DNA of 64,000 nt, from IMG/VR virus record IMGVR_UViG_3300005512_000001, positions 277,435 through 341,434 of that record. One strand, written 5' to 3'. The stretch comes from a virus. Taxonomy: Duplodnaviria > Caudoviricetes. Of the stretch, positions 20,119 through 49,688 are shown one piece after another (position 1 is the stretch's first letter; each line of letters begins with the position of its first letter). The notes under the pieces are model-generated. The model saw only the letters and a list, made by a program, of their open reading frames with translations, was not told where the DNA came from and ran no database searches. Both the position numbers and the translations under genes were made by a program.

Positions 20119-20784
20119 ATAATAATATGCATATTTGGGGTCATTCTTTATAGCCTCTTCACCCTCAGGCCATCTTCCCCTAATAATATCACGGGCATAG
20201 CGATATGCATATTCAGGGTCACTCTTTATAGCCTCTTCACCCTCAGGCCATCTTCCTCCAATAACATAATGGGCATAGCGATATACATATTCAGGGTTAT
20301 TCTTTATAGCCTCTTCACCCTCGGCCCATCTTCCCTTAATAATATCATAGGCATAACGATATGTCCATTTAGGGTCATTCTTTATAGCCTCTTCACCCTC
20401 AAGCCATCTTCCTCTAATAATATCACGGGCATAGAAATATGCATATTTAGGGTCACTCTTTATAGCTTCTTCGCCCTCAGGCCATCTTCCTCTAATAACA
20501 TCACAGGCATAATAATATGCATATTCAGGGTCATTCTTTATGGCCTCTTCACCCTCAGGCCATCTTCCCTTAATAATATTACGAGTATAATAATATGCCC
20601 ATCCAGGGTCATTCTTTATAACCTCTTCACCCTCAGGCCATCTTCCCTTAATAATATTACGAGTATAATAATATGCTTGCTCTGCATTGAAGATGCGTAT
20701 TTCCTCTGAGCCGTCGTCATAGCCCACAATGTCTTTAAAATCGGGGTCCTCTAGTCTATCGGGATGTGGCGTTATGATAATCAT
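20101..20784 (-). CDS. 26-aa helical repeat protein, copy B (7 GRW repeats)
   Basis: GRWPEGEEAIKxDPxxAYxYAxDVIx repeats; 78-bp period. Confidence 0.85.
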   Translation of the reverse strand: MIIITPHPDRLEDPDFKDIVGYDDGSEEIRIFNAEQAYYYTRNIIKGRWPEGEEVIKNDPGWAYYYTRNIIKGRWPEGEEAIKNDPEYAYYYACDVIRGRWPEGEEAIKSDPKYAYFYARDIIRGRWLEGEEAIKNDPKWTYRYAYDIIKGRWAEGEEAIKNNPEYVYRYAHYVIGGRWPEGEEAIKSDPEYAYRYARDIIRGRWPEGEEAIKNDPKYAYYYSVEHN

Positions 20785-21551
20785 CGCACCGTCTTGTGTC
20801 TTCCCTCATAGTGATATGCATATTCAGGGCTACTCTTTATAACCTCTTCACCCTCAGGCCATCTTCCTCTAATAATGTCACGGGCATAATAATATGCCCA
20901 TTTAGGGTCACTCTTTATAGCCTCTTCACCCTCAAGCCATCTTCCCTTAATAACATTACAGGCATAACAATATGTATATTCAGGGTCACTCTTTATAGCC
21001 TCTTCACCCTCAAGCCATCTTCCCTTAATAACATCGCAAGCATAATAATATGCATATTCAGGGTCATTCTTTATGGCCTCTTCACCCTCAGGCCATCTTC
21101 CCTTAATAACATCACAGGCATAGTAATGTGCCCATTTAGGGTCATTCTTTATGGCCTCTTCACCTTCAGGCCATCTTCCCTTAATAACATCACAGGCATA
21201 GAAATATGCATATTTAGGGTCACTCTTTATAGCCTCTTCGCCCTCAGGCCATCTTCCCTTAATAACATTACAGGCATAAGAATATGCCCATCCAGGGTCA
21301 CTCTTTATAGCCTCTTCACCCTCAGGCCATCTTCCCCTAATAACATCACGGGCATAGCGATATGCCCATCCAGGGTCATTCTTTATGGCCTCTTCACCCT
21401 CGGCCCATCTTCCTCTAATAACATAATGGGCATAGCAATATGCTTGCTTTACATTGAAGATACGTATTTCCTCTGAGCCGTCGTCATAGCCCACAATGTC
21501 TTTAAAATCGGGGTCCTCTAGTCTATCGGGATGTGGCGTTATGATAATCAT
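20781..21551 (-). CDS. 26-aa helical repeat protein, copy A (8 GRW repeats)
   Basis: Same repeat; first 33 aa identical to copy B. Confidence 0.85.
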   Translation of the reverse strand: MIIITPHPDRLEDPDFKDIVGYDDGSEEIRIFNVKQAYCYAHYVIRGRWAEGEEAIKNDPGWAYRYARDVIRGRWPEGEEAIKSDPGWAYSYACNVIKGRWPEGEEAIKSDPKYAYFYACDVIKGRWPEGEEAIKNDPKWAHYYACDVIKGRWPEGEEAIKNDPEYAYYYACDVIKGRWLEGEEAIKSDPEYTYCYACNVIKGRWLEGEEAIKSDPKWAYYYARDIIRGRWPEGEEVIKSSPEYAYHYEGRHKTVR

Positions 21552-29974: not shown

Positions 29975-30061
29975 GGAGGGTTGGCAGAGTCAGGTTTATT
30001 GCACCCGTTTCGAATACGGGAAGGCCGCAAGGTCTCGTGGGTTCGAATCCTTCACCCTCCG
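29975..30061 (+). tRNA. tRNA-Ser(CGA)
   Basis: Cloverleaf, long variable arm; T-stem mismatches. Confidence 0.8.
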
Positions 30062-30081
30062 TTTAACCTGACCACAAAAAT

Positions 30082-30155
30082 GGGAGTGTAACTCAATTTG
30101 GTAGAGTAACCGCCTTTTAAGCGGTAAGTTCTGGGTTCGAGTCCCAGCACTCCCA
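30082..30155 (+). tRNA. tRNA-Lys(TTT)
   Basis: Cloverleaf, loop CT-TTT-AA. Confidence 0.92.
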
Positions 30156-33754: not shown

Positions 33755-35065
33755 GTGATGAGGACGAATGTAAAGAACAAGTACGCCGAGAAGACGCACG
33801 AGGGTGCACCTGCTGCAAGGTTGAACGCCGAACAGGAATTGCGAAGGTCTGTTATGTCGTGCCTTTTGTGGGAGAGAACCTTCTACGAGAATGGCGTGGG
33901 CATCGCAGAGCGGATCGCTGATTTAGTGCCGCACGTAGCACCAGAAAAGGTCGCTGCGATGGCAATCGAGGCACGTAGCGATATGAACTTGCGACACGCC
34001 CCGTTGTGGTTGGTCCGTTCGATGGCGGCTACCAAGACGCACAGGAGTTTGGTCGCTGATACGCTGGAAGCAGTAATTCAGCGTCCAGACGAACTGACTG
34101 AGTTCTTGTCTCTGTACTGGAATGGCAAGAAGACACCGCTTGCGGCTCAGGTCAAGAAGGGATTAGCAAGAGCATTCCGTAAGTTCGACGCTTATCGGTT
34201 GGCGAAGTACAATAGGGACAATGCCATCAAGCTTCGCGATGTCCTGTTCCTGACTCACGCCAAGCCAAAGGATGCCGAGCAGGCTGCAGTTTGGAAGAAG
34301 CTGGTCGATGGCACCTTGGAAGCCCCAGATACTTGGGAAGTTGCACTTTCGAGTGGTGCGGATAAGCAAGGTTCTTGGACCAGATTGCTTGAGGAAGGGA
34401 AGCTTGGTGCCTTTGCGTTGCTGAGGAACTTACGCAATATGCAGAAAGCAGATGTCGATGAGGACTTAATCAAAGACGCATTGGCCAAGGCTGATGTTTC
34501 CAGGATTTTGCCATTCCGATTCATCGCAGCTGCTCGTTATGCACCAGATTTTGAACCTGCTCTTGAGAAGGCGTTATTCAGGAGCTTGGAATCTCAGAAG
34601 CTTGTTGGTAAGACCATCGTATTGGTCGATGTTTCTGGTTCTATGAACTGGGAGCTTAGTTCGAAGTCCGATATGTTACGGATGGACGCGGCCTGCGGTC
34701 TTGCGATGGTATTGAGGGAATTGTGCGACGATATTAAAGTGTTCAGTTTCTCAACCCGCACTGCCAAGGTACCGGCCCGCAGAGGTTTTGCGCTACGTGA
34801 TGCAATCGTAAGGTCGCAGCGGCATAGCGGAACTTATCTTGGTGGGGCAGTTGACACCGCCAATAAAGAGAAGTACGACCGATTGGTGGTAATCACGGAT
34901 GAGCAGTCGCACGATGTTGTGCCATCGCCAAAGAGCCGTGGATACATGATTAATGTTTCGTCGGACAAAAATGGAGTTGGATACGGTGATTGGACTCGCA
35001 TTACCGGATGGAGCGAAGCGGTTGTGCGATATGTAATGGAACTTGAAAACGCCAAGTTCGTGTAG
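33755..35065 (+). CDS. rsr: Ro60/Rsr RNA-binding protein (TROVE + vWA domains)
   Basis: THEGAPA, LLWERTFYE, QRPDELTE, FDAYRLAKYNR, LRDVLFLTH, TWEVALS, ALLRNLRN, LPFRF; MIDAS DVSGSM; ITDEQ; ITGWSE. Confidence 0.95.
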   Translation: MMRTNVKNKYAEKTHEGAPAARLNAEQELRRSVMSCLLWERTFYENGVGIAERIADLVPHVAPEKVAAMAIEARSDMNLRHAPLWLVRSMAATKTHRSLVADTLEAVIQRPDELTEFLSLYWNGKKTPLAAQVKKGLARAFRKFDAYRLAKYNRDNAIKLRDVLFLTHAKPKDAEQAAVWKKLVDGTLEAPDTWEVALSSGADKQGSWTRLLEEGKLGAFALLRNLRNMQKADVDEDLIKDALAKADVSRILPFRFIAAARYAPDFEPALEKALFRSLESQKLVGKTIVLVDVSGSMNWELSSKSDMLRMDAACGLAMVLRELCDDIKVFSFSTRTAKVPARRGFALRDAIVRSQRHSGTYLGGAVDTANKEKYDRLVVITDEQSHDVVPSPKSRGYMINVSSDKNGVGYGDWTRITGWSEAVVRYVMELENAKFV

Positions 35066-35070
35066 TATTT

Positions 35071-35331
35071 GACAATTAGTAGAGGCGACCGACGCTTAAG
35101 TCGGTAGGACGTGCTGTGAGGCAGCGACAGGTAGGTACGCCTGTTACACTACCTCCGACTCCATCAACGCAGATGGTTTAGGGAGGGAGCGAAAAGACCC
35201 GTAAAGGGAGACACAGCCAGGTCTGTCAGTCAGGGATGGGTGAGTATGACACCCACACAGTACCTTATGGCTTAGACAGTAGGGAATGCGTTACCCGAGA
35301 TCCCGATAAAGCTGCCCATCTATTAGTTGTC
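35071..35331 (+). ncRNA. Unclassified ~260-nt structured RNA candidate
   Basis: 13-bp closing stem GACAATTAGTAGA/TCTATTAGTTGTC; multiple hairpins; complementary loops AACGCA/TGCGTT. Confidence 0.65.
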
Positions 35332-35349
35332 GCTAAATGGAGAGTTGTC

Positions 35350-35543
35350 ATGAACAAAGACGAGTTTCACAAAAGACAGCAGGGTTATCGCTTCTGGTTA
35401 GTATTGGGCGGTATGGCGGCTTCAATTTTGGGCTTGGAAGATATGGAGTTCGGCTTGTGCTAGGTTGGATTTCGATTTTCCTGGCCACTGTTGATTTGGA
35501 CTACGTATTGAGTTTGTCTACGAAGCAAAACGCAGAACAATGA
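35350..35543 (+). pseudogene. Frameshifted small membrane protein
   Basis: RBS + MNKDEF..ILGL continues as GRYGVRLVLGW.. in a shifted frame near 35435. Confidence 0.4.
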
Positions 35544-35547
35544 TATT

Positions 35548-35684
35548 CCAACGATGGTGTAGGTGACAGTTACTTCGATTTAGGATCGAGTGGTTGTGGG
35601 TTCGAATCCCACCCGCCCTTAATCGGGGCGGTAGCTCAATTGGCAGAGCGCTAAAACTTTCTGTTGCCGCCTGTTCCTCGTTGG
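35548..35684 (+). ncRNA. Y RNA-like unit 1: permuted tRNA with TAG anticodon loop
   Basis: CCAACGA/TCGTTGG and GGTGACAG/CTGTTGCC stems; anticodon arm, T arm, loop-closed acceptor, D arm. Confidence 0.85.
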
Positions 35685-35697
35685 TACTTTTGAGATT

Positions 35698-35764
35698 AAC
35701 CGATGGTGAAGAATACGGCTACTTCTATTTAAGAACCAAACCCGTGTTCGCTTGTTCCTCGGTT
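35698..35764 (+). ncRNA. Y RNA-like unit 2: minimal, Ro-binding stem only
   Basis: AACCGA/TCGGTT and GAATACGG/CCGTGTTC stems with conserved GGTGAAG / GCTTGTTCC loop. Confidence 0.8.
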
Positions 35765-35776
35765 TTTCATAAAGTT

Positions 35777-35863
35777 GGTTGATGGTGTAGGAATCGGTTA
35801 CTTCTACCAAAACCGGCCTCAAAAGCTGGTACTTGAAAAACCGATTTCGCATGTTCCTCAACC
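35777..35863 (+). ncRNA. Y RNA-like unit 3: lone anticodon-like hairpin (CAA)
   Basis: GGTTGA/TCAACC and GGAATCGGTT/AACCGATTTC stems; ACCGGC-CTCAAAA-GCTGGT. Confidence 0.8.
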
Positions 35864-35870
35864 TACAATC

Positions 35871-36011
35871 ATAGCTGATGGTGTAGGATACGGTTACTTC
35901 GACTTGTAATCGAGAGGTTGCGGGTTCGAATCCCGTCCATTTGTCGAGAGACATTTGGTAGCTCAACTGGTAGAGCGCTAAAATTTCCGTTTCCGCTTGT
36001 TCCTCGGCTAT
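35871..36011 (+). ncRNA. Y RNA-like unit 4: permuted tRNA with TGT anticodon loop
   Basis: ATAGCTGA/TCGGCTAT stem; TTCGA-CTTGTAA-TCGAG; T arm; GAGA-capped acceptor; D arm. Confidence 0.85.
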
Positions 36012-36018
36012 TCATTAT

Positions 36019-36162
36019 TTAGTTGATGGTGTAGAGAACAGTTACTTCTATAAAACGGTAGGTTACAGGTTTCGAGCCCTGTCCGCCTCAATGAGGCGGT
36101 AGCTCAACTGGAAGAGCAATCGTGGCATAAGCCAAGTCTGTTTTCGCCTGTTCCTCAACTAA
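36019..36162 (+). ncRNA. Y RNA-like unit 5: T/acceptor/D tRNA-like module
   Basis: TTAGTTGA/TCAACTAA and GAGAACAG/CTGTTTTC stems; CCGCCTC-AAT-GAGGCGG acceptor; D arm. Confidence 0.85.
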
Positions 36163-36169
36163 TTATTTT

Positions 36170-36291
36170 GCTGCGTTAGCTCAATAGGTAGAGTGCTGGG
36201 ACCTTTATCCCAGGTATGAGGAGTCGCAACTTCGTTGGTCCTAGGCACCGGGTGTTGTTGTTGGCTTAAGGTTCGAATCCCTCACGCAGCA
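36170..36291 (+). ncRNA. tRNA-like RNA with 8-nt anticodon loop and ~50-nt variable region
   Basis: GCTGCGT/ACGCAGC acceptor, D arm, CTGGG-ACCTTTAT-CCCAG, GGTTCGAATCC. Confidence 0.7.
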
Positions 36292-40163: not shown

Positions 40164-40514
40164 ATGCCGCATAAGACCCCAGAAGCACGTAAAGCCTACA
40201 TGGATAAGTATAACAAACGACGTTATGCAGATCCAGAGTGGTCACATAAGCAATATTTGAGAGTTAAAAACCGCAAAGAGAAAGTAAACAGATGGTATAA
40301 AGCGAAGAAGGAACAACTAAAGTGTAAATGTGGTGAAGATCATATTTCATGCATTGAATTTCATCACCGCAACCCAGGCGAGAAGGAGATTAATTTAAGT
40401 TATGCTGTATGGAGAGGCTGGAGTATTCAACGTATTGAACGCGAAATAGCGAAATGCGATGTGATGTGCTCCAACTGCCATAAAAAGTTGCATTTTAAAC
40501 TCAAGGAGATATAA
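40164..40514 (+). CDS. HNH-type endonuclease
   Basis: CKCGE..CIEFHH..KCDVMCSNCH. Confidence 0.8.
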   Translation: MPHKTPEARKAYMDKYNKRRYADPEWSHKQYLRVKNRKEKVNRWYKAKKEQLKCKCGEDHISCIEFHHRNPGEKEINLSYAVWRGWSIQRIEREIAKCDVMCSNCHKKLHFKLKEI

Positions 40515-43178: not shown

Positions 43179-44192
43179 ATGGTCAAGGAAAATGGATTCA
43201 CGCTAGTTGAAATGCTGGTTATAATAGTAATTATTGCACTGTTGTTGATGATTATTTTACCAGCAATGCATACAGCTAAAGAGCATACATACAATGCGAC
43301 ATGTCAATCGAACCTTCATCATTTATTTGAAATATTACACGCACCTTCAGAACCCGGTAAAATCCCAAATATGCCAAATTATAGAGGATGGATTCCAAAG
43401 GTCACCAATGTCGGCCCGGCCGGATTATTAATTTGCCCTAAAGATGATGTTGAGGACAGTGCTGCTGCTGTTGGGATAGATGGGGTTACAATTATAAGCC
43501 CTCCGCCATCGGTCGTTTTCAACAAATATGAAAGCAATACCATTATCCATGGTTTTATTGAACAAGATGGCTATGAATTACCATCTGCTGTTGCAGTAAA
43601 TATCTCCCAACCTGGACTATACACTTCTGGTTATGATTCTACTAGAACTACTATTCCAGCTGGCACGGTTGTTGATTCATATTTTGTGTTTTTTGACCCA
43701 GTTGGTAGCCAATATTCAACTTCAAGCGGCACTGTGACTTTGGCAGCGGATGTTTTAGGGCTGATTGTAAAATCTGGAGATTTGGACGCTAGCGATTCAA
43801 TCTTGGGCAGCCCTAACGTATTGTATCCAACCGGGCAAGGAGCAAGAGGTTTTGAGAGCGGGGCGGAGAGAGTGGAACTCGAAAATGACATGCGAACAAT
43901 AAAAATTCATCATTTTCAATCCACATTTCCTGGCGAAAATATGCGCATATTAACGATGCGTGGCGGCGTAGCTAGTTATGGGATGAATAAGCTTATGATG
44001 CCATCCGACACTCGACCCGGCCAGATATTACTAGTGGAATATGAATCAACAGTTGTCGACCCGCGTAGCGTAAACCACAAAAAGTCGATGCAGGCACGCC
44101 ACTTTGGTCGTGTTAATACTTTATATATCAGTGGCGATATCGAGAGCCTAGAGATAGATAGCATACAAGAGAAGGACTGGTTAGCAAGATAA
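43179..44192 (+). CDS. Prepilin-type N-methylation domain protein with H-X9-DG-like C-terminus (DUF1559-like)
   Basis: GFTLVEMLVIIVIIALLLMIILPA..CQSNL..SYGMN..RHFGRVNTLYISGDIE. Confidence 0.85.
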   Translation: MVKENGFTLVEMLVIIVIIALLLMIILPAMHTAKEHTYNATCQSNLHHLFEILHAPSEPGKIPNMPNYRGWIPKVTNVGPAGLLICPKDDVEDSAAAVGIDGVTIISPPPSVVFNKYESNTIIHGFIEQDGYELPSAVAVNISQPGLYTSGYDSTRTTIPAGTVVDSYFVFFDPVGSQYSTSSGTVTLAADVLGLIVKSGDLDASDSILGSPNVLYPTGQGARGFESGAERVELENDMRTIKIHHFQSTFPGENMRILTMRGGVASYGMNKLMMPSDTRPGQILLVEYESTVVDPRSVNHKKSMQARHFGRVNTLYISGDIESLEIDSIQEKDWLAR

Positions 44193-46934: not shown

Positions 46935-47543
46935 ATGACTGCATTAAATAGTTCAGTTTTAGTTTTAAATAAGCACTACGCGGCTGATGGTGAAACCGAT
47001 GTAAAGCGTGCGCTATGCCTAGTTTTTAGAGGCGTGGCTGAAATTATAGATGTTGATGGCGGCAAATTCAATAATTATGATTTCGAGTCATGGCAGGAAT
47101 TAAGCGAATTCAAAGCTGAATTTGAAAAAGATAACCATAATTGGATTAGATGTGTTGCTAGTGTATTAGCAATCCCAACTATAATTAGGCTTGTAAGTTA
47201 CGGCAAATTCAGACGTAGAGAAGCTAAGCTCAATAGACGCAATTTGTTTGCCAGAGATAAGAATACATGCCAGTTCTGCGGCAAGAAAATGAAGACATCT
47301 GAGCTTAGCTTAGACCATGTTGTTCCAAAAAGCAGAGGTGGTAAGCTGGAATGGACGAACGTGGTATGTGCATGTATCAAGTGCAATGTTAAGAAGGCTA
47401 ATAGGACTCCTAGTGAAGCGCATATGAAGTTGATTCGCAAGCCGTTCCAGCCGAAGCATCAATTAAATGTCCCAAAAATAAAGTATCGCTCTTGGGCACA
47501 CTTTGTTGATGCAGCTTATTGGGGTGCTGAATTAAAGGAGTGA
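46935..47543 (+). CDS. HNH endonuclease (McrA-like)
   Basis: VLVLN, RDKNTCQFCG, LDHVVPKSRGG, NVVCACIKCNVKK. Confidence 0.92.
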   Translation: MTALNSSVLVLNKHYAADGETDVKRALCLVFRGVAEIIDVDGGKFNNYDFESWQELSEFKAEFEKDNHNWIRCVASVLAIPTIIRLVSYGKFRRREAKLNRRNLFARDKNTCQFCGKKMKTSELSLDHVVPKSRGGKLEWTNVVCACIKCNVKKANRTPSEAHMKLIRKPFQPKHQLNVPKIKYRSWAHFVDAAYWGAELKE

Positions 47544-48246: not shown

Positions 48247-48756
48247 ATGAACAACAAAGACCGCACGGAATTTGGATTCCATCGTACAGTGTCGGCGAAT
48301 GCCGAAGATGTGCTGTGCTGTAAGTATATGCCAAGTTATCTAGTTCCATCCGACATTAGTAGATTGTGCGATAGGTTTGGGTGTAATCCATTGCAACTAG
48401 CCAAATCACATTTATTGGCTTCTCCGGGTGCTGAGATAAGCAAGGATGGCGTTAGACAGAGACTCCGCACGTTAGTACCAGACAGGAATAGTGTCGGTCA
48501 CTGTGAATTCCTTCATGATGGCAAATGTGCTATCCATGGTGATTCTCCGTATGGTTGTGCATTTTTCGATTCTGAAATGTCAGACCAAGAAGCATCCCTC
48601 CGCACTAGTGCAGGGCTGCAAGCTATATGGGATGCCTGGCAAGACGAAGATAGTGATTACGCCTTGCTATGGGATTTATTATTTCTGATGGGTAGACGCG
48701 CCCCGGACCCATATGAATGCAAAAGGAAGATTAGAGAGGAATTAAGGAAATTATGA
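48247..48756 (+). CDS. YkgJ/CxxCxxCC-like cysteine-cluster protein
   Basis: LCC..CEFLHDGKCAIH..PYGCAFF. Confidence 0.65.
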   Translation: MNNKDRTEFGFHRTVSANAEDVLCCKYMPSYLVPSDISRLCDRFGCNPLQLAKSHLLASPGAEISKDGVRQRLRTLVPDRNSVGHCEFLHDGKCAIHGDSPYGCAFFDSEMSDQEASLRTSAGLQAIWDAWQDEDSDYALLWDLLFLMGRRAPDPYECKRKIREELRKL

Positions 48757-49688
48757 AAGTTACGATTATAATGGGTGCTCCGGCGTCTGGGAAAAGTACG
48801 CTTGCTGAAAAGGTATTGACCGATGGGTGTGTCCATTTAAATAGAGACACAGAGGGTGGTAGAACATTCGACCTACTGCCTAAGATGGCTGCTGCTTTGC
48901 GCGATGGCAGAGATGTTGTGACCGATAATTTATTTACAACTGCAAATACCCGAAAGCCATTTATAGAATTAGCTAAGAAGCATGGAGCAACAGTTATTGG
49001 TCAGCGAATGGACACTAGCATTGAGGACGCCCAAATCAACGCTTTACACCGCATGATTAAAAAACATGGTAGGCTATTTTTCACTGCTCAGGATACGAAA
49101 GGAATCGATGACCCTGGTGTATTTCCGGTTGCAGTGTTATTCAGATACCGGAAAGACCTTGAGAAGCCAGTCATAACGGAAGGTTTTGATGAACTTACGA
49201 CAGTAAAATTTGTTAGGGAACCGTCGCTATGCTCCAATAAAGCTGTATTGTTGGATTATGACGGCACCCTACGTGAATCCACCGGCGATTACCCATATCC
49301 TGTAAAGCCGGGAGATGTCAAGGTTATTCCTGGTGTGGCTGAGAAGCTGATGGATTACATACGGCAGGGCTATATGCTGCTTGGGATATCAAACCAATCT
49401 GGAATAGGCAAGGGGGTGCTTACTGACGATGAGGTGCAAGCTTGTTTTGAGGAGACACACAAGCAAATTGGGATTCAGATTTACACACAATATTGCCCGC
49501 ATAAAGTGCCACCTATCTCATGTTATTGTAGGAAGCCGCAGAGTGGCATGGGTGTTAATCTTATTGAACAATTCAAGTTGAACCCGGCGCAGTGTATAAT
49601 GGTTGGGGACCAAACCACTGACAAGACGTTTGCCAAGAGGTTAGGTTTCCAATTTGAGTTTGCCCACAAATTCTTTAAAAGACATTAG
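48753..49688 (+). CDS. Polynucleotide kinase/phosphatase-like bifunctional enzyme
   Basis: GAPASGKST, NRD; C-terminal HAD DYDGT, SNQSG, CRKP, MVGD. Confidence 0.85.
   Translation: MKVTIIMGAPASGKSTLAEKVLTDGCVHLNRDTEGGRTFDLLPKMAAALRDGRDVVTDNLFTTANTRKPFIELAKKHGATVIGQRMDTSIEDAQINALHRMIKKHGRLFFTAQDTKGIDDPGVFPVAVLFRYRKDLEKPVITEGFDELTTVKFVREPSLCSNKAVLLDYDGTLRESTGDYPYPVKPGDVKVIPGVAEKLMDYIRQGYMLLGISNQSGIGKGVLTDDEVQACFEETHKQIGIQIYTQYCPHKVPPISCYCRKPQSGMGVNLIEQFKLNPAQCIMVGDQTTDKTFAKRLGFQFEFAHKFFKRH

What the first reader, a model, noticed from the sequence alone, without database searches (positions are those of the whole stretch)
33755..36162. Phage Ro60 with a tandem array of five modular Y RNAs: constant Ro-binding stem, swappable tRNA-mimic payloads
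Seen: after an intact Ro60 gene lie five units (35548-35684, 35698-35764, 35777-35863, 35871-36011, 36019-36162). Each has the conserved 5' GATGGTG(T/A)AG..TACTTC and 3' CGCnTGTTCCTC. The flanking stems differ in sequence yet still pair (outer CCAAC/GTTGG, AACC/GGTT, GGTT/AACC, ATAGCT/GGCTAT, TTAGTT/AACTAA; inner GGTGACAG/CTGTTGCC, GAATACGG/CCGTGTTC, GGAATCGG/CCGATTTC, GGATACGG/CCGTTTCC, GAGAACAG/CTGTTTTC), i.e. within-locus covariation. Established: bacterial Rsr/Ro60 genes neighbour Y RNAs (YrlA) with a GNCGAAN(0-1)G-type Ro-binding helix and a tRNA-like effector domain, and a few phages encode Ro60 plus a Y RNA. Inference: this is an expanded repertoire in which one Ro60 protein is programmed by five different RNA adaptors, embedded in a tRNA island with RNA-repair enzymes; a candidate counter-defence or tRNA-surveillance system.
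Basis: partly seen in the sequence, partly recalled or inferred. Interest (0 to 1): 0.92.

Follow-up and report, generated by a model that had tools for sequence, protein, structure and literature searches.

The report
Phage Ro60 gene with five Y RNAs
A 341-kb uncultured phage encodes the RNA-binding ring protein Ro60 followed by five small partner RNAs that share one conserved handle but carry different inner parts (three are sealed tRNA look-alikes); this is a real example of a known protein-RNA partnership, and the same arrays sit, mostly unannotated, beside related Ro60 genes in over a hundred phage and bacterial sequences.

Summary
A TROVE/Ro60 gene (33755-35065) is followed by exactly five units that share a 5' GAUGGUG(U/A)AG...UACUUC and a 3' CGCNUGUUCCUC. 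There are no other copies in the 341-kb genome.

A covariance model built from 11 short units finds 174 matches in 67 related viral loci and 162 in 61 bacterial or MAG loci. Every match is on the Ro60 strand and lies within about 2.5 kb of the gene. Both scaffold helices covary strongly: 94-95% of cells pair, against 40-52% in slid controls.

Units 1, 4 and 5 carry the T arm, closed acceptor stem and D arm of YrlA-type Y RNAs. Rfam YrlA scores them at 32-43 bits, below its 69-bit cut-off. Units 2 and 3 are short, YrlB-like.

Five units is not exceptional:
- Caulobacter phage CcrColossus has 8.
- Xanthomonas phage 10KY502B has 5.
- Several bacterial loci have 5.

Phage Ro60 with Y RNAs is already published (Chen 2014; Thermus phage phiLo 2025).

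The less expected point is that many tRNA-like units, including units 1 and 4, keep a complete anticodon-arm mimic with varied "anticodons" (U33 85%, R37 96%). This explains why they are misannotated as tRNAs.

The "RNA-repair island" context is only partly supported. This scan has noted similar arrays beside Ro60-like genes on other DNA. No expression data were obtainable.

The parts
33755..35065 (+). Ro60 (TROVE + vWA/MIDAS) protein gene, 436 aa. The probable real start is the ATG at 33758.
   Evidence: Pfam TROVE E 5.5e-18, 65.8 bits against a cut-off of 23. vWA_Ro60 scores 24.8 bits, just under its cut-off. PHROG 850 'RNA-binding protein' E 1.6e-50 over the full length. The closest solved structure is Thermus phage phiLo Ro60, 9KOP/9L5Y, E 1.2e-32. 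The MIDAS residues D292, S294 and S296 are invariant among relatives.
35548..35684 (+). Y RNA unit 1 (137 nt). Scaffold plus a complete permuted tRNA mimic: anticodon-like arm (loop UUUAGGA), 5-nt variable loop, T arm, 7-bp closed acceptor stem, D arm.
   Evidence: R1 44.9 bits, E 1.8e-8. Rfam YrlA 42.9 bits, E 7.8e-8, below the gathering score of 69. Fold z -3.82. Anticodon-like arm found.
35698..35764 (+). Y RNA unit 2 (67 nt). Scaffold plus a short UUCU/AGAA hairpin; no tRNA-like domain (YrlB-like).
   Evidence: R1 71.3 bits, E 2.4e-15. Fold z -3.29. No Rfam match.
35777..35863 (+). Y RNA unit 3 (87 nt). Scaffold plus a small internal hairpin; no tRNA-like domain.
   Evidence: R1 68.3 bits, E 1.5e-14. 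Fold z -3.54. No Rfam match.
35871..36011 (+). Y RNA unit 4 (141 nt). Scaffold plus a complete permuted tRNA mimic: anticodon-like arm (loop CUUGUAA), variable loop AGGUU, T arm, acceptor stem with two U-U mismatches, D arm. Its 5' two-thirds is miscalled as tRNA-Thr(UGU).
   Evidence: R1 53.8 bits. Rfam YrlA 33.1 bits. ARAGORN calls tRNA-Thr at 35872-35945 and Rfam tRNA scores 30.8 bits. Fold z -3.55.
36019..36162 (+). Y RNA unit 5 (144 nt). Scaffold plus T arm (8-nt loop), 7-bp closed acceptor stem, D arm and an extra hairpin after the D arm. It has no anticodon-like arm.
   Evidence: R1 49.5 bits. Rfam YrlA 31.6 bits. Fold z -3.38. Its nearest payload relative is the L070 unit.

Best explanation
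The locus encodes a phage Ro60 ribonucleoprotein system: one Ro60 ring protein and five Y RNA genes.

Each RNA has a constant "handle":
- a variable outer helix ending in G-N/N-C;
- a bulged U, then GG/CC;
- an asymmetric internal loop, 5' YGNA against 3' G(C/A)NUGUU;
- a 7-8-bp covarying second helix;
- an invariant UACUUC.

The 5' strand GGYGWAG corresponds to the published Ro60-binding motif GNCGAAN0-1G. By homology, the handle is the site Ro60 binds.

The interior of each RNA is the variable effector module. Units 1, 4 and 5 display a sealed tRNA mimic, and units 2 and 3 a small hairpin.

By analogy with Deinococcus, Salmonella, Mycobacterium and Thermus phage phiLo, the RNAs are probably cut out of a polycistronic transcript shared with neighbouring tRNAs. 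They would then tether or gate Ro60 towards different partners, such as host PNPase or other exoribonucleases and tRNA-binding enzymes. Units with a 7-bp acceptor stem may be opened by RNase P.

Shown here: the genes, the conserved covarying structure, and the strict linkage to Ro60. Inferred: Ro60 binding, processing, the partners, and the role in infection.
For: Ro60 identity:
- Pfam, PHROG and the closest solved structure agree.

The five units:
- There are five and only five in the genome.

Linkage to Ro60:
- Model R1 finds 174 matches in viral loci and 162 in bacterial or MAG loci. All are on the Ro60 strand and next to the gene, and none is on the opposite strand across about 816 kb.

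Covariation:
- On the model-fitted alignment, 16 of 16 pairs show compensatory changes. 94.7% of cells pair against at most 52% in slid controls, with 662 double-change cells against at most 169.
- On an independent MAFFT alignment of 30 tRNA-like units, 27 of 31 pairs show compensatory changes and 94.0% of cells pair against at most 50%.

Link to YrlA:
- Rfam YrlA hits units 1, 4 and 5 at E 8e-8 to 1e-4.
- The family consensus GGYGWAG includes exact GGCGAAG.

Age of the units:
- Unit 1 is closer to a unit in another contig (75%) than to its paralogue unit 4 (69%), so the unit types are old.

Literature:
- Y RNAs are encoded within 4 kb of Ro60 on the same strand. Bacteria have at least two, one tRNA-like and one hairpin-like, processed from precursors with tRNAs (PMC4201824).
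- Phage phiLo Ro60 binds two upstream Yrl RNAs and host PNPase (PMC12135203).
Against: - No expression, processing or binding data could be obtained.
- No unit reaches the Rfam YrlA gathering score.
- The window's motif differs from GNCGAAN0-1G at one or two positions.
- In units 1 and 4 the Ro-binding stem does not replace the anticodon stem as it does in the crystallised Salmonella YrlA.
- The effector(s) are unknown.
- No PNPase gene or RNA ligase was found nearby.
Confidence: 0.85

Rival explanations
1. The tRNA-like units act mainly as decoys, competitive inhibitors or baits for enzymes that read anticodon loops, such as host anticodon nucleases used in anti-phage defence or tRNA-modifying enzymes. 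Ro60 would serve only as a stabilising or recruiting handle. The array would then be a repertoire of different anticodon-arm mimics.
For: - Units 1 and 4 carry canonical 5-bp, 7-nt anticodon-like arms followed by a 5-nt variable loop.
- Across 52 distinct units the loop keeps U33 (85%), R37 (96%), A38 (73%) and Y32 (75%), while the middle triplet takes 33 different values.
- The locus sits in a 41-tRNA island. Relatives L041, L054 and L070 do too.
- Hughes et al. 2020 (PMC7790460) proposed that YrlA could competitively inhibit an anticodon nuclease.
Against: - Units 2, 3 and 5, and about half of all tRNA-like units elsewhere, lack such an arm.
- The same arrays occur in bacterial chromosomes, so the general function is not phage counter-defence.
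- No nuclease target is identified.
- The loop signature could simply reflect descent from tRNAs together with recognition by tRNA-modifying enzymes.
Confidence: 0.1
2. The units are cis-acting parts of the Ro60 transcript, meaning leader or trailer structures through which Ro60 autoregulates its own mRNA. They would not be independent trans-acting RNAs.
For: In about 110 related loci the array lies directly upstream of Ro60, often ending within 20-100 nt of the start codon and on the same strand.
Against: - In this window the array is downstream of Ro60 and 480 nt away. L059 and L099 also have downstream arrays.
- M. smegmatis YrlA and YrlB, which lie upstream of rsr, are processed into discrete Rsr-bound RNAs (PMC4201824).
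- The payload diversity is hard to explain for a leader.
Confidence: 0.04
3. Units 1, 4 and 5 are permuted or split tRNA genes that mature into aminoacylatable, decoding tRNAs through RNase P cleavage in the acceptor loop and CCA addition. Alternatively, the whole array is decaying tRNA-derived debris.
For: - ARAGORN, Rfam and GenBank annotators call parts of such units as tRNAs.
- The 7-bp acceptor stems covary.
- M. smegmatis YrlA is cut by RNase P and receives CCA (PMC4201824).
- The genome has a CCA-adding enzyme.
Against: - Unit 4's acceptor stem has two U-U mismatches. Unit 1 has a UAG (Leu-type) loop but no long variable arm.
- A large helix is attached at position 26/27.
- Units 2 and 3 have no tRNA body.
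- The strict non-tRNA scaffold, with covariation and Ro60 linkage, argues against debris.
- Matches to the phage's own tRNAs extend only about 17-22 nt, over generic T and D arms.
Confidence: 0.02

Closest known systems
YrlA / YrlB Y RNAs with bacterial Rsr (Ro60): Salmonella Typhimurium, Mycobacterium smegmatis (Chen et al. 2014, PMC4201824; Rfam RF02553)
   Same: - Encoded within 4 kb of Ro60 on the same strand.
- Long terminal stem with a conserved purine-rich 5' motif (GNCGAAN0-1G against GGYGWAG here).
- One class has T arm, closed acceptor stem and D arm in that permuted order. A second class is a simple hairpin.
- Conserved UA after the second helix.
- Co-location with tRNA genes.
   Different: - Scores are only 32-43 bits against a 69-bit gathering score.
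- There are five genes here rather than two.
- The 3' strand motif UGUUCC and the invariant UACUUC are specific to this subfamily.
- In units 1 and 4 an anticodon-arm mimic is retained and the Ro stem joins at position 26/27 through single-stranded linkers. In crystallised Salmonella YrlA the Ro stem continues the anticodon stem and there is no anticodon loop (bioRxiv 10.1101/312249).
Thermus phage phiLo Ro60 with Yrl1 and Yrl2 (NAR 2025, PMC12135203; PDB 9KOP, 9L5Y)
   Same: - Phage-encoded Ro60, and the closest solved structure to this protein (E 1.2e-32).
- Several Y-like RNAs are encoded beside the gene.
- Stem-bulge-stem RNAs with a CGAA-type motif.
- Binding to Ro60 and to host PNPase has been shown experimentally.
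   Different: - phiLo has two RNAs, upstream of the gene, and no tRNA-like domain is described for them. Here there are five, downstream, and three are tRNA-like.
- I could not compare the phiLo RNA sequences directly.
Ro60 loci of Caulobacter phage CcrColossus (JX100810) and Xanthomonas phage 10KY502B (OQ622092)
   Same: - Ro60 is 53-55% identical.
- The same scaffold is found by R1: 8 units in CcrColossus and 5 in 10KY502B, on the Ro60 strand, mixing short and tRNA-like units.
- According to PMC12135203, Chen 2014 reported Y-RNA-like RNAs in CcrColossus.
   Different: - The arrays lie upstream of Ro60.
- The GenBank records annotate none as Y RNAs. One unit in each record is annotated as tRNA-Gln or tRNA-Thr.
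Metazoan Y RNAs (Y1, Y3, Y4, Y5) with Ro60
   Same: - One Ro60 protein is served by several clustered Y RNAs.
- These share a bulged Ro-binding helix and differ in the loop that recruits other proteins.
- The modular "constant handle, variable effector domain" logic is the same.
   Different: There is no tRNA-like domain. They are Pol III genes, and there is no detectable sequence relationship.

Membership tests
Ro60 / Rsr (TROVE) protein | TROVE (HEAT-repeat ring) domain | tested here: met
   PF05731 E 5.5e-18, 65.8 bits against a cut-off of 23. PHROG 850 over the full length. Matches phiLo Ro60 in the PDB at E 1.2e-32.
Ro60 / Rsr (TROVE) protein | C-terminal vWA domain with MIDAS DxSxS | tested here: met
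   vWA_Ro60 scores 24.8 bits (cut-off 27.7) and VWA_2 19.8 bits, both over residues 287-385. D292, S294 and S296 are invariant in 6 relatives. The domain score is slightly below the Pfam cut-off.
YrlA (Rfam RF02553) | Score at or above the family gathering threshold (69 bits) | tested here: not met
   Unit 1 scores 42.9 bits, unit 4 33.1 and unit 5 31.6. Units 2 and 3 have no match.
YrlA (Chen et al. 2014 definition) | Within 4 kb of the Ro60 gene and on the same strand | tested here: met
   The units lie 483-1097 nt downstream of the Ro60 stop, on the + strand. The same linkage holds for 336 matches in 128 other loci.
YrlA (Chen et al. 2014 definition) | GNCGAAN0-1G motif near the 5' end | tested here: inconclusive
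   The window units read GGUGUAG (four units) or GGUGAAG (unit 2), one or two mismatches from the motif. The family consensus GGYGWAG (Y = C in 45%, W = A in 45%) includes exact GGCGAAG in relatives.
YrlA (Chen et al. 2014 definition) | tRNA-like domain: T arm, closed acceptor-like stem, D arm, in that order | tested here: met
   Present in units 1, 4 and 5. The helices covary in 30 relatives, including a 7-bp acceptor stem. Absent from units 2 and 3, which resemble YrlB-type hairpin Y RNAs.
YrlA (crystal structure, S. Typhimurium) | The Ro-binding stem is the continuation of the anticodon stem, with no anticodon loop | tested here: not met
   Units 1 and 4 have their own 5-bp, 7-nt anticodon-like hairpin and 5-nt variable loop. 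The scaffold joins through 4-nt and roughly 9-nt linkers. Unit 5 has a short closing helix instead.
Y RNA (functional class) | Bound by Ro60 in vivo and dependent on it for stability | not testable with these tools
   Needs RIP, EMSA or Northern blots.

The most novel reading that the evidence does not exclude
In this Ro60 clade the tRNA-like Y RNAs are complete, circularly permuted tRNAs whose anticodon arm is kept under tRNA-like constraint (Y32, U33, R37, A38) while the "anticodon" varies freely. An array would then be a set of different anticodon-arm baits held on a Ro60 handle. The baits would capture, inhibit or report on enzymes that act on anticodon loops. In phages this would include host tRNA-cleaving defence nucleases, making the array a programmable counter-defence linked to the phage's tRNA island.
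Probability: 0.1. Interest if true: 0.85.

Novelty: new variant of a known kind. Interest (0 to 1): 0.5.

Why it matters
Ro60-Y RNA particles are conserved from bacteria to humans, yet their partners and purpose in microbes are still largely unknown.

This locus and its roughly 130 relatives offer three things:
- A covariance model that also detects the short, non-tRNA-like Y RNAs that earlier searches could not find.
- Evidence that multi-member arrays (1-8 units) are the rule in this clade, in small phages, jumbo phages and bacterial chromosomes alike.
- Culturable systems in which the function of individual Y RNAs can be tested genetically: CcrColossus on Caulobacter and the Xanthomonas phages.

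The work also flags a practical annotation error: such units are being deposited as tRNA genes. The retained anticodon-arm mimic gives a concrete, testable handle on what the tRNA-like domain recruits.

Tried and rejected
- **Rfam at gathering thresholds:** no YrlA hit. Only tRNAs were found, plus a spurious tRNA call inside unit 4.
- **Sub-threshold YrlA hits elsewhere in the genome:** these fall on tandem tRNA pairs (for example window 30007-30130). That is the false-positive type Chen et al. warned about.
- **Alternative pairing of the conserved GNAG with NUAC (a D-arm-like fold of the 5' half):** no covariation across A2 and A4 by inspection. I treat it as a relic, not a structure.
- **Fixed-column test of a third helix (UUC with GAA) in the short units:** the register differs between sequences, so it was not scored.
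- **ORFs overlapping the array (115 aa on the minus strand, 62 aa on the plus strand):** no Pfam family.
- **RtcB, Rnl2 and Rnl1 searches of the genome:** none found. The Rnl1 control rang nowhere, so that search is uninformative.
- **R1 on the Ro60 loci of Ralstonia phage RsoM2USA, crAss001 and Rhizobium phage RHph_TM61:** no match at E <= 1. Those phages must use other RNAs or none.
- **blastn of the 482-nt spacer after Ro60 and of the 122-nt tRNA-like gene against all related loci:** no match.
- **Promoters:** a sigma-70 scan gave nothing above shuffled expectation. A regex for the phage's reported CACnA-type promoter gave only a relaxed match at 35514, at a chance-level frequency.
- **Tools and papers that were unavailable:** The supplement tables of Chen 2014 and the two Sim & Wolin reviews were not held. 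I therefore could not check how many YrlAs per phage were already listed.
- **The genome search 'relatives':** not available for a virus record.
Full report
**What is there**

The window is the last 64 kb of a 341,434-bp IMG/VR virus record with direct terminal repeats, that is, a jumbo phage. It contains a dense tRNA island: ARAGORN tRNAs and Rfam gives 42 matches.

ORF 33755-35065 (+) encodes a 436-aa protein.
- It has a TROVE domain (E 5.5e-18) and a vWA domain.
- It matches PHROG 850 over its full length.
- Its closest solved relative is the Ro60 of Thermus phage phiLo, PDB 9KOP/9L5Y, E 1.2e-32.
- The first codon, GTG, is followed in frame by ATG at 33758. That ATG is the more likely start.

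**Is the repeat real?**

The 5' pattern GATGGTGNAG-N7-9-YTACTTC occurs five times in the entire genome. All five are here, none is on the other strand, and there are none for the reversed control. The 3' pattern GCNTGTTCCTC matches exactly five times in the window.

The ORFs that overlap the array match no protein family.

**Relatives and covariation**

The Ro60 protein found 7, and then (with an alignment as query) 67, related loci in viral contigs. It found 61 in bacterial genomes and MAGs at 52-64% identity.

Reading the flanks showed the same units directly upstream of Ro60 in most loci. I aligned 11 short units (A2). RNAalifold returned the two-helix scaffold, with compensatory changes at 10 of 16 pairs. 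I then built covariance model R1.

R1 gave these results:

| Sequence searched | Matches | Strand |
|---|---|---|
| 449 kb of viral loci | 174 | all on the Ro60 strand |
| 367 kb of bacterial and MAG loci | 162 | all on the Ro60 strand |

All matches lie next to the Ro60 gene.

On the 150 best viral matches:
- 94.7% of cells form pairs, against 40-52% when the 3' partners are slid.
- All 16 pairs show double changes.
- There are 662 double-change cells, against at most 169 in the controls.

That alignment is fitted to the model. I therefore repeated the count on a plain MAFFT alignment of 30 tRNA-like units (A4). There, 94.0% of cells pair against at most 50% in slid controls, and 27 of 31 pairs show double changes. 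This covers the T arm, a 7-bp acceptor-like stem and the D arm as well.

The structure is therefore real and maintained by selection.

**Anatomy**

The consensus over 135 distinct units, from the outside in:
- A variable outer helix ending G(80%)-R.
- A bulged U (94%), then GG paired with CC.
- An internal loop: 5' Y-G(100%)-W-A(98%) opposite 3' G(97%)-(C/A)-N-U-G-U-U.
- A 7-8-bp helix that starts with a near-invariant G-C pair.
- UACUUC at 91-100% conservation.

The 5' strand GGYGWAG is a variant of the GNCGAAN0-1G motif that Chen et al. proposed as the Rsr contact (PMC4201824). Exact GGCGAAG occurs in relatives. The window's own units read GGUGUAG or GGUGAAG.

The interior differs between units:
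- **Units 1, 4 and 5** have a T arm, a closed acceptor stem and a D arm, which is the YrlA order. Rfam YrlA detects them at E 8e-8 to 1e-4, but at 32-43 bits, well under its 69-bit threshold.
- **Units 2 and 3** are short hairpins. They resemble the second, non-tRNA Y RNA found in each characterised bacterium (PMC4201824).

**Five is not special**

Most of the 67 viral loci, 58 of them, carry 1-8 units, most often 2 or 3. Counts in cultured phages and bacterial loci:

| Source | Units |
|---|---|
| Caulobacter phage CcrColossus | 8 |
| 308-kb contig L051 (same length as Caulobacter phage CcrPW) | 8 |
| Xanthomonas phage 10KY502B (43 kb) | 5 |
| Brevundimonas phage Kabachok | at least 3 |
| Several bacterial loci | 5 |

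The GenBank records do not annotate these units as Y RNAs. One CcrColossus unit is labelled tRNA-Gln and one 10KY502B unit tRNA-Thr. ARAGORN makes the same mistake for window unit 4 and for six units elsewhere.

The array lies downstream of Ro60 only here, in L059 and in L099, a contig from a Pirellulales MAG.

Unit 1 is 75% identical to a unit in contig L050 but only 69% identical to its neighbour, unit 4. The unit types are therefore older than the phage lineages and are not recent tandem copies.

**An unexpected detail**

In units 1 and 4 the stretch between UAC and the T arm is a 5-bp stem with a 7-nt loop (UUUAGGA in unit 1, CUUGUAA in unit 4). It is followed by a 5-nt variable loop. Together with the other arms, this makes a complete tRNA permuted at position 26/27, with its acceptor end sealed.

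A pattern scan over all loci found 52 distinct sequences with this layout; a few of these are genuine tRNAs or chance matches rather than Y RNA units. Across the 52:

| Loop position | Residue | Frequency |
|---|---|---|
| 1 (tRNA position 32) | pyrimidine | 75% |
| 2 (position 33) | U | 85% |
| 3-5 ("anticodon") | 33 different triplets | variable |
| 6 (position 37) | purine | 96% |
| 7 (position 38) | A | 73% |

This is the signature of a genuine anticodon loop. The crystallised Salmonella YrlA "lacks the anticodon loop" and uses the anticodon stem as the connector to the Ro module (bioRxiv 10.1101/312249). This subfamily is therefore built differently.

The layout fits the published idea that YrlA arose from dimeric tRNA transcripts (same source). 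It also explains the tRNA misannotations.

Matches between the payloads and the phage's own tRNAs extend only 17-22 nt, over T and D arms. The payloads are therefore not recent copies of resident tRNA genes.

**Context**

The claim of an island "with RNA-repair enzymes" is only partly true.
- A T4 Pnkp-like kinase/phosphatase lies at 48753-49688.
- A CCA-adding-type enzyme lies far away in the genome.
- Neither RtcB nor Rnl2 was found, and the Rnl1 search was uninformative.

Several relatives also place Ro60 and its array inside tRNA clusters. This agrees with co-transcription with tRNAs, as in Deinococcus (PMC4201824).

**Mechanism**

The best-supported reading is the standard Y RNA model. 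One Ro60 ring binds the shared handle. The different interiors tether or gate it towards different partners.

The phiLo work shows that a phage Ro60 binds its neighbouring Yrl RNAs and assembles with host PNPase (PMC12135203). Units with a 7-bp acceptor stem (units 1 and 5) are plausible RNase P substrates, as M. smegmatis YrlA is (PMC4201824).

Binding, processing and partners are inferred here, not shown. I could get no transcript data.

The decoy or competitive-inhibitor idea for anticodon nucleases has been raised for YrlA (PMC7790460), and the anticodon-arm mimics fit it. Against it:
- Half of the units lack such an arm.
- The arrays also live in bacterial chromosomes.

I rate it at about 10%.

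**Novelty**

Already published:
- Ro60 with several Y RNAs.
- The modular handle-plus-effector logic.
- Phage examples, including Y-RNA-like RNAs reported in CcrColossus (cited by PMC12135203 from Chen 2014).

New here:
- A further member in a jumbo phage.
- A model that captures the short units.
- The extent of the arrays across phages and bacteria.
- The retained anticodon-arm mimic.

I could not see Chen's supplementary tables, so some of these units may already be listed there.

This scan has also reported comparable handle-plus-cargo arrays beside Ro60-like genes in other genomes.

I class the finding as a variant of a known kind, of moderate interest.

Noticed in passing
window 35066-35349: The 284-nt stretch right after the Ro60 stop folds into a long closed structure at -95.7 kcal/mol (z = -3.0). 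It has no Rfam match and no blastn match in any related Ro60 locus. It may be a separate structured RNA or a 3' UTR element.
   Followed up: partly
window 35350-35463: A small ORF of 37 aa (begins MNKDEFHK) with a GGAGAG ribosome-binding site 6 nt upstream and a hydrophobic middle. It lies between Ro60 and the array and has no PHROG family.
   Followed up: partly
window 36170-36291: A 122-nt tRNA-like gene starts 7 nt after unit 5. It scores 35.8 bits on Rfam tRNA and has a normal acceptor stem, D arm and T arm. It carries a roughly 50-nt insert in the variable region and an odd anticodon loop, and ARAGORN does not call it. No relative was found in other loci.
   Followed up: partly
L087 (JX100810 109217-109284) and L088 (OQ622092 20624-20691): GenBank 'tRNA-Gln' in Caulobacter phage CcrColossus and 'tRNA-Thr' in Xanthomonas phage 10KY502B lie inside R1 Y RNA units upstream of Ro60. 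They are probably misannotations. ARAGORN makes the same call in L041, L054, L059, L066, L076 and L088.
   Followed up: yes
window 20157-21401 (- strand): GAGGGTGAAG recurs with a 78-bp period at least 13 times. This suggests a tandem 26-residue repeat inside a gene.
   Followed up: no
window 48753-49688: A 311-aa protein with an N-terminal P-loop kinase domain (AAA_33) and a C-terminal PNK3P/HAD phosphatase domain, the layout of T4 Pnkp. No RtcB or Rnl2 ligase was found in the genome.
   Followed up: partly
L099 (Pirellulales MAG contig CAZDQP010000001.1) and window 43179-44192: The only bacterial-collection locus with the array downstream of Ro60, as in this window, comes from a Pirellulales MAG (Ro60 62% identical). 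The window also encodes a protein with a prepilin N-methylation motif (PF07963). Together these are a weak clue to a Planctomycetota host.
   Followed up: partly
window 35514-35541: TTGTCT-N13-GCAGAACAA sits just upstream of unit 1. It resembles the TTG / GC..CAC.A promoter class that other notes report for this phage. However, the relaxed pattern occurs at a chance-level frequency in the window (12 forward, 13 reverse).
   Followed up: partly
window 46935-47543 and 40164-40514: Two HNH endonuclease genes are interspersed among the tRNA genes of the island.
   Followed up: no
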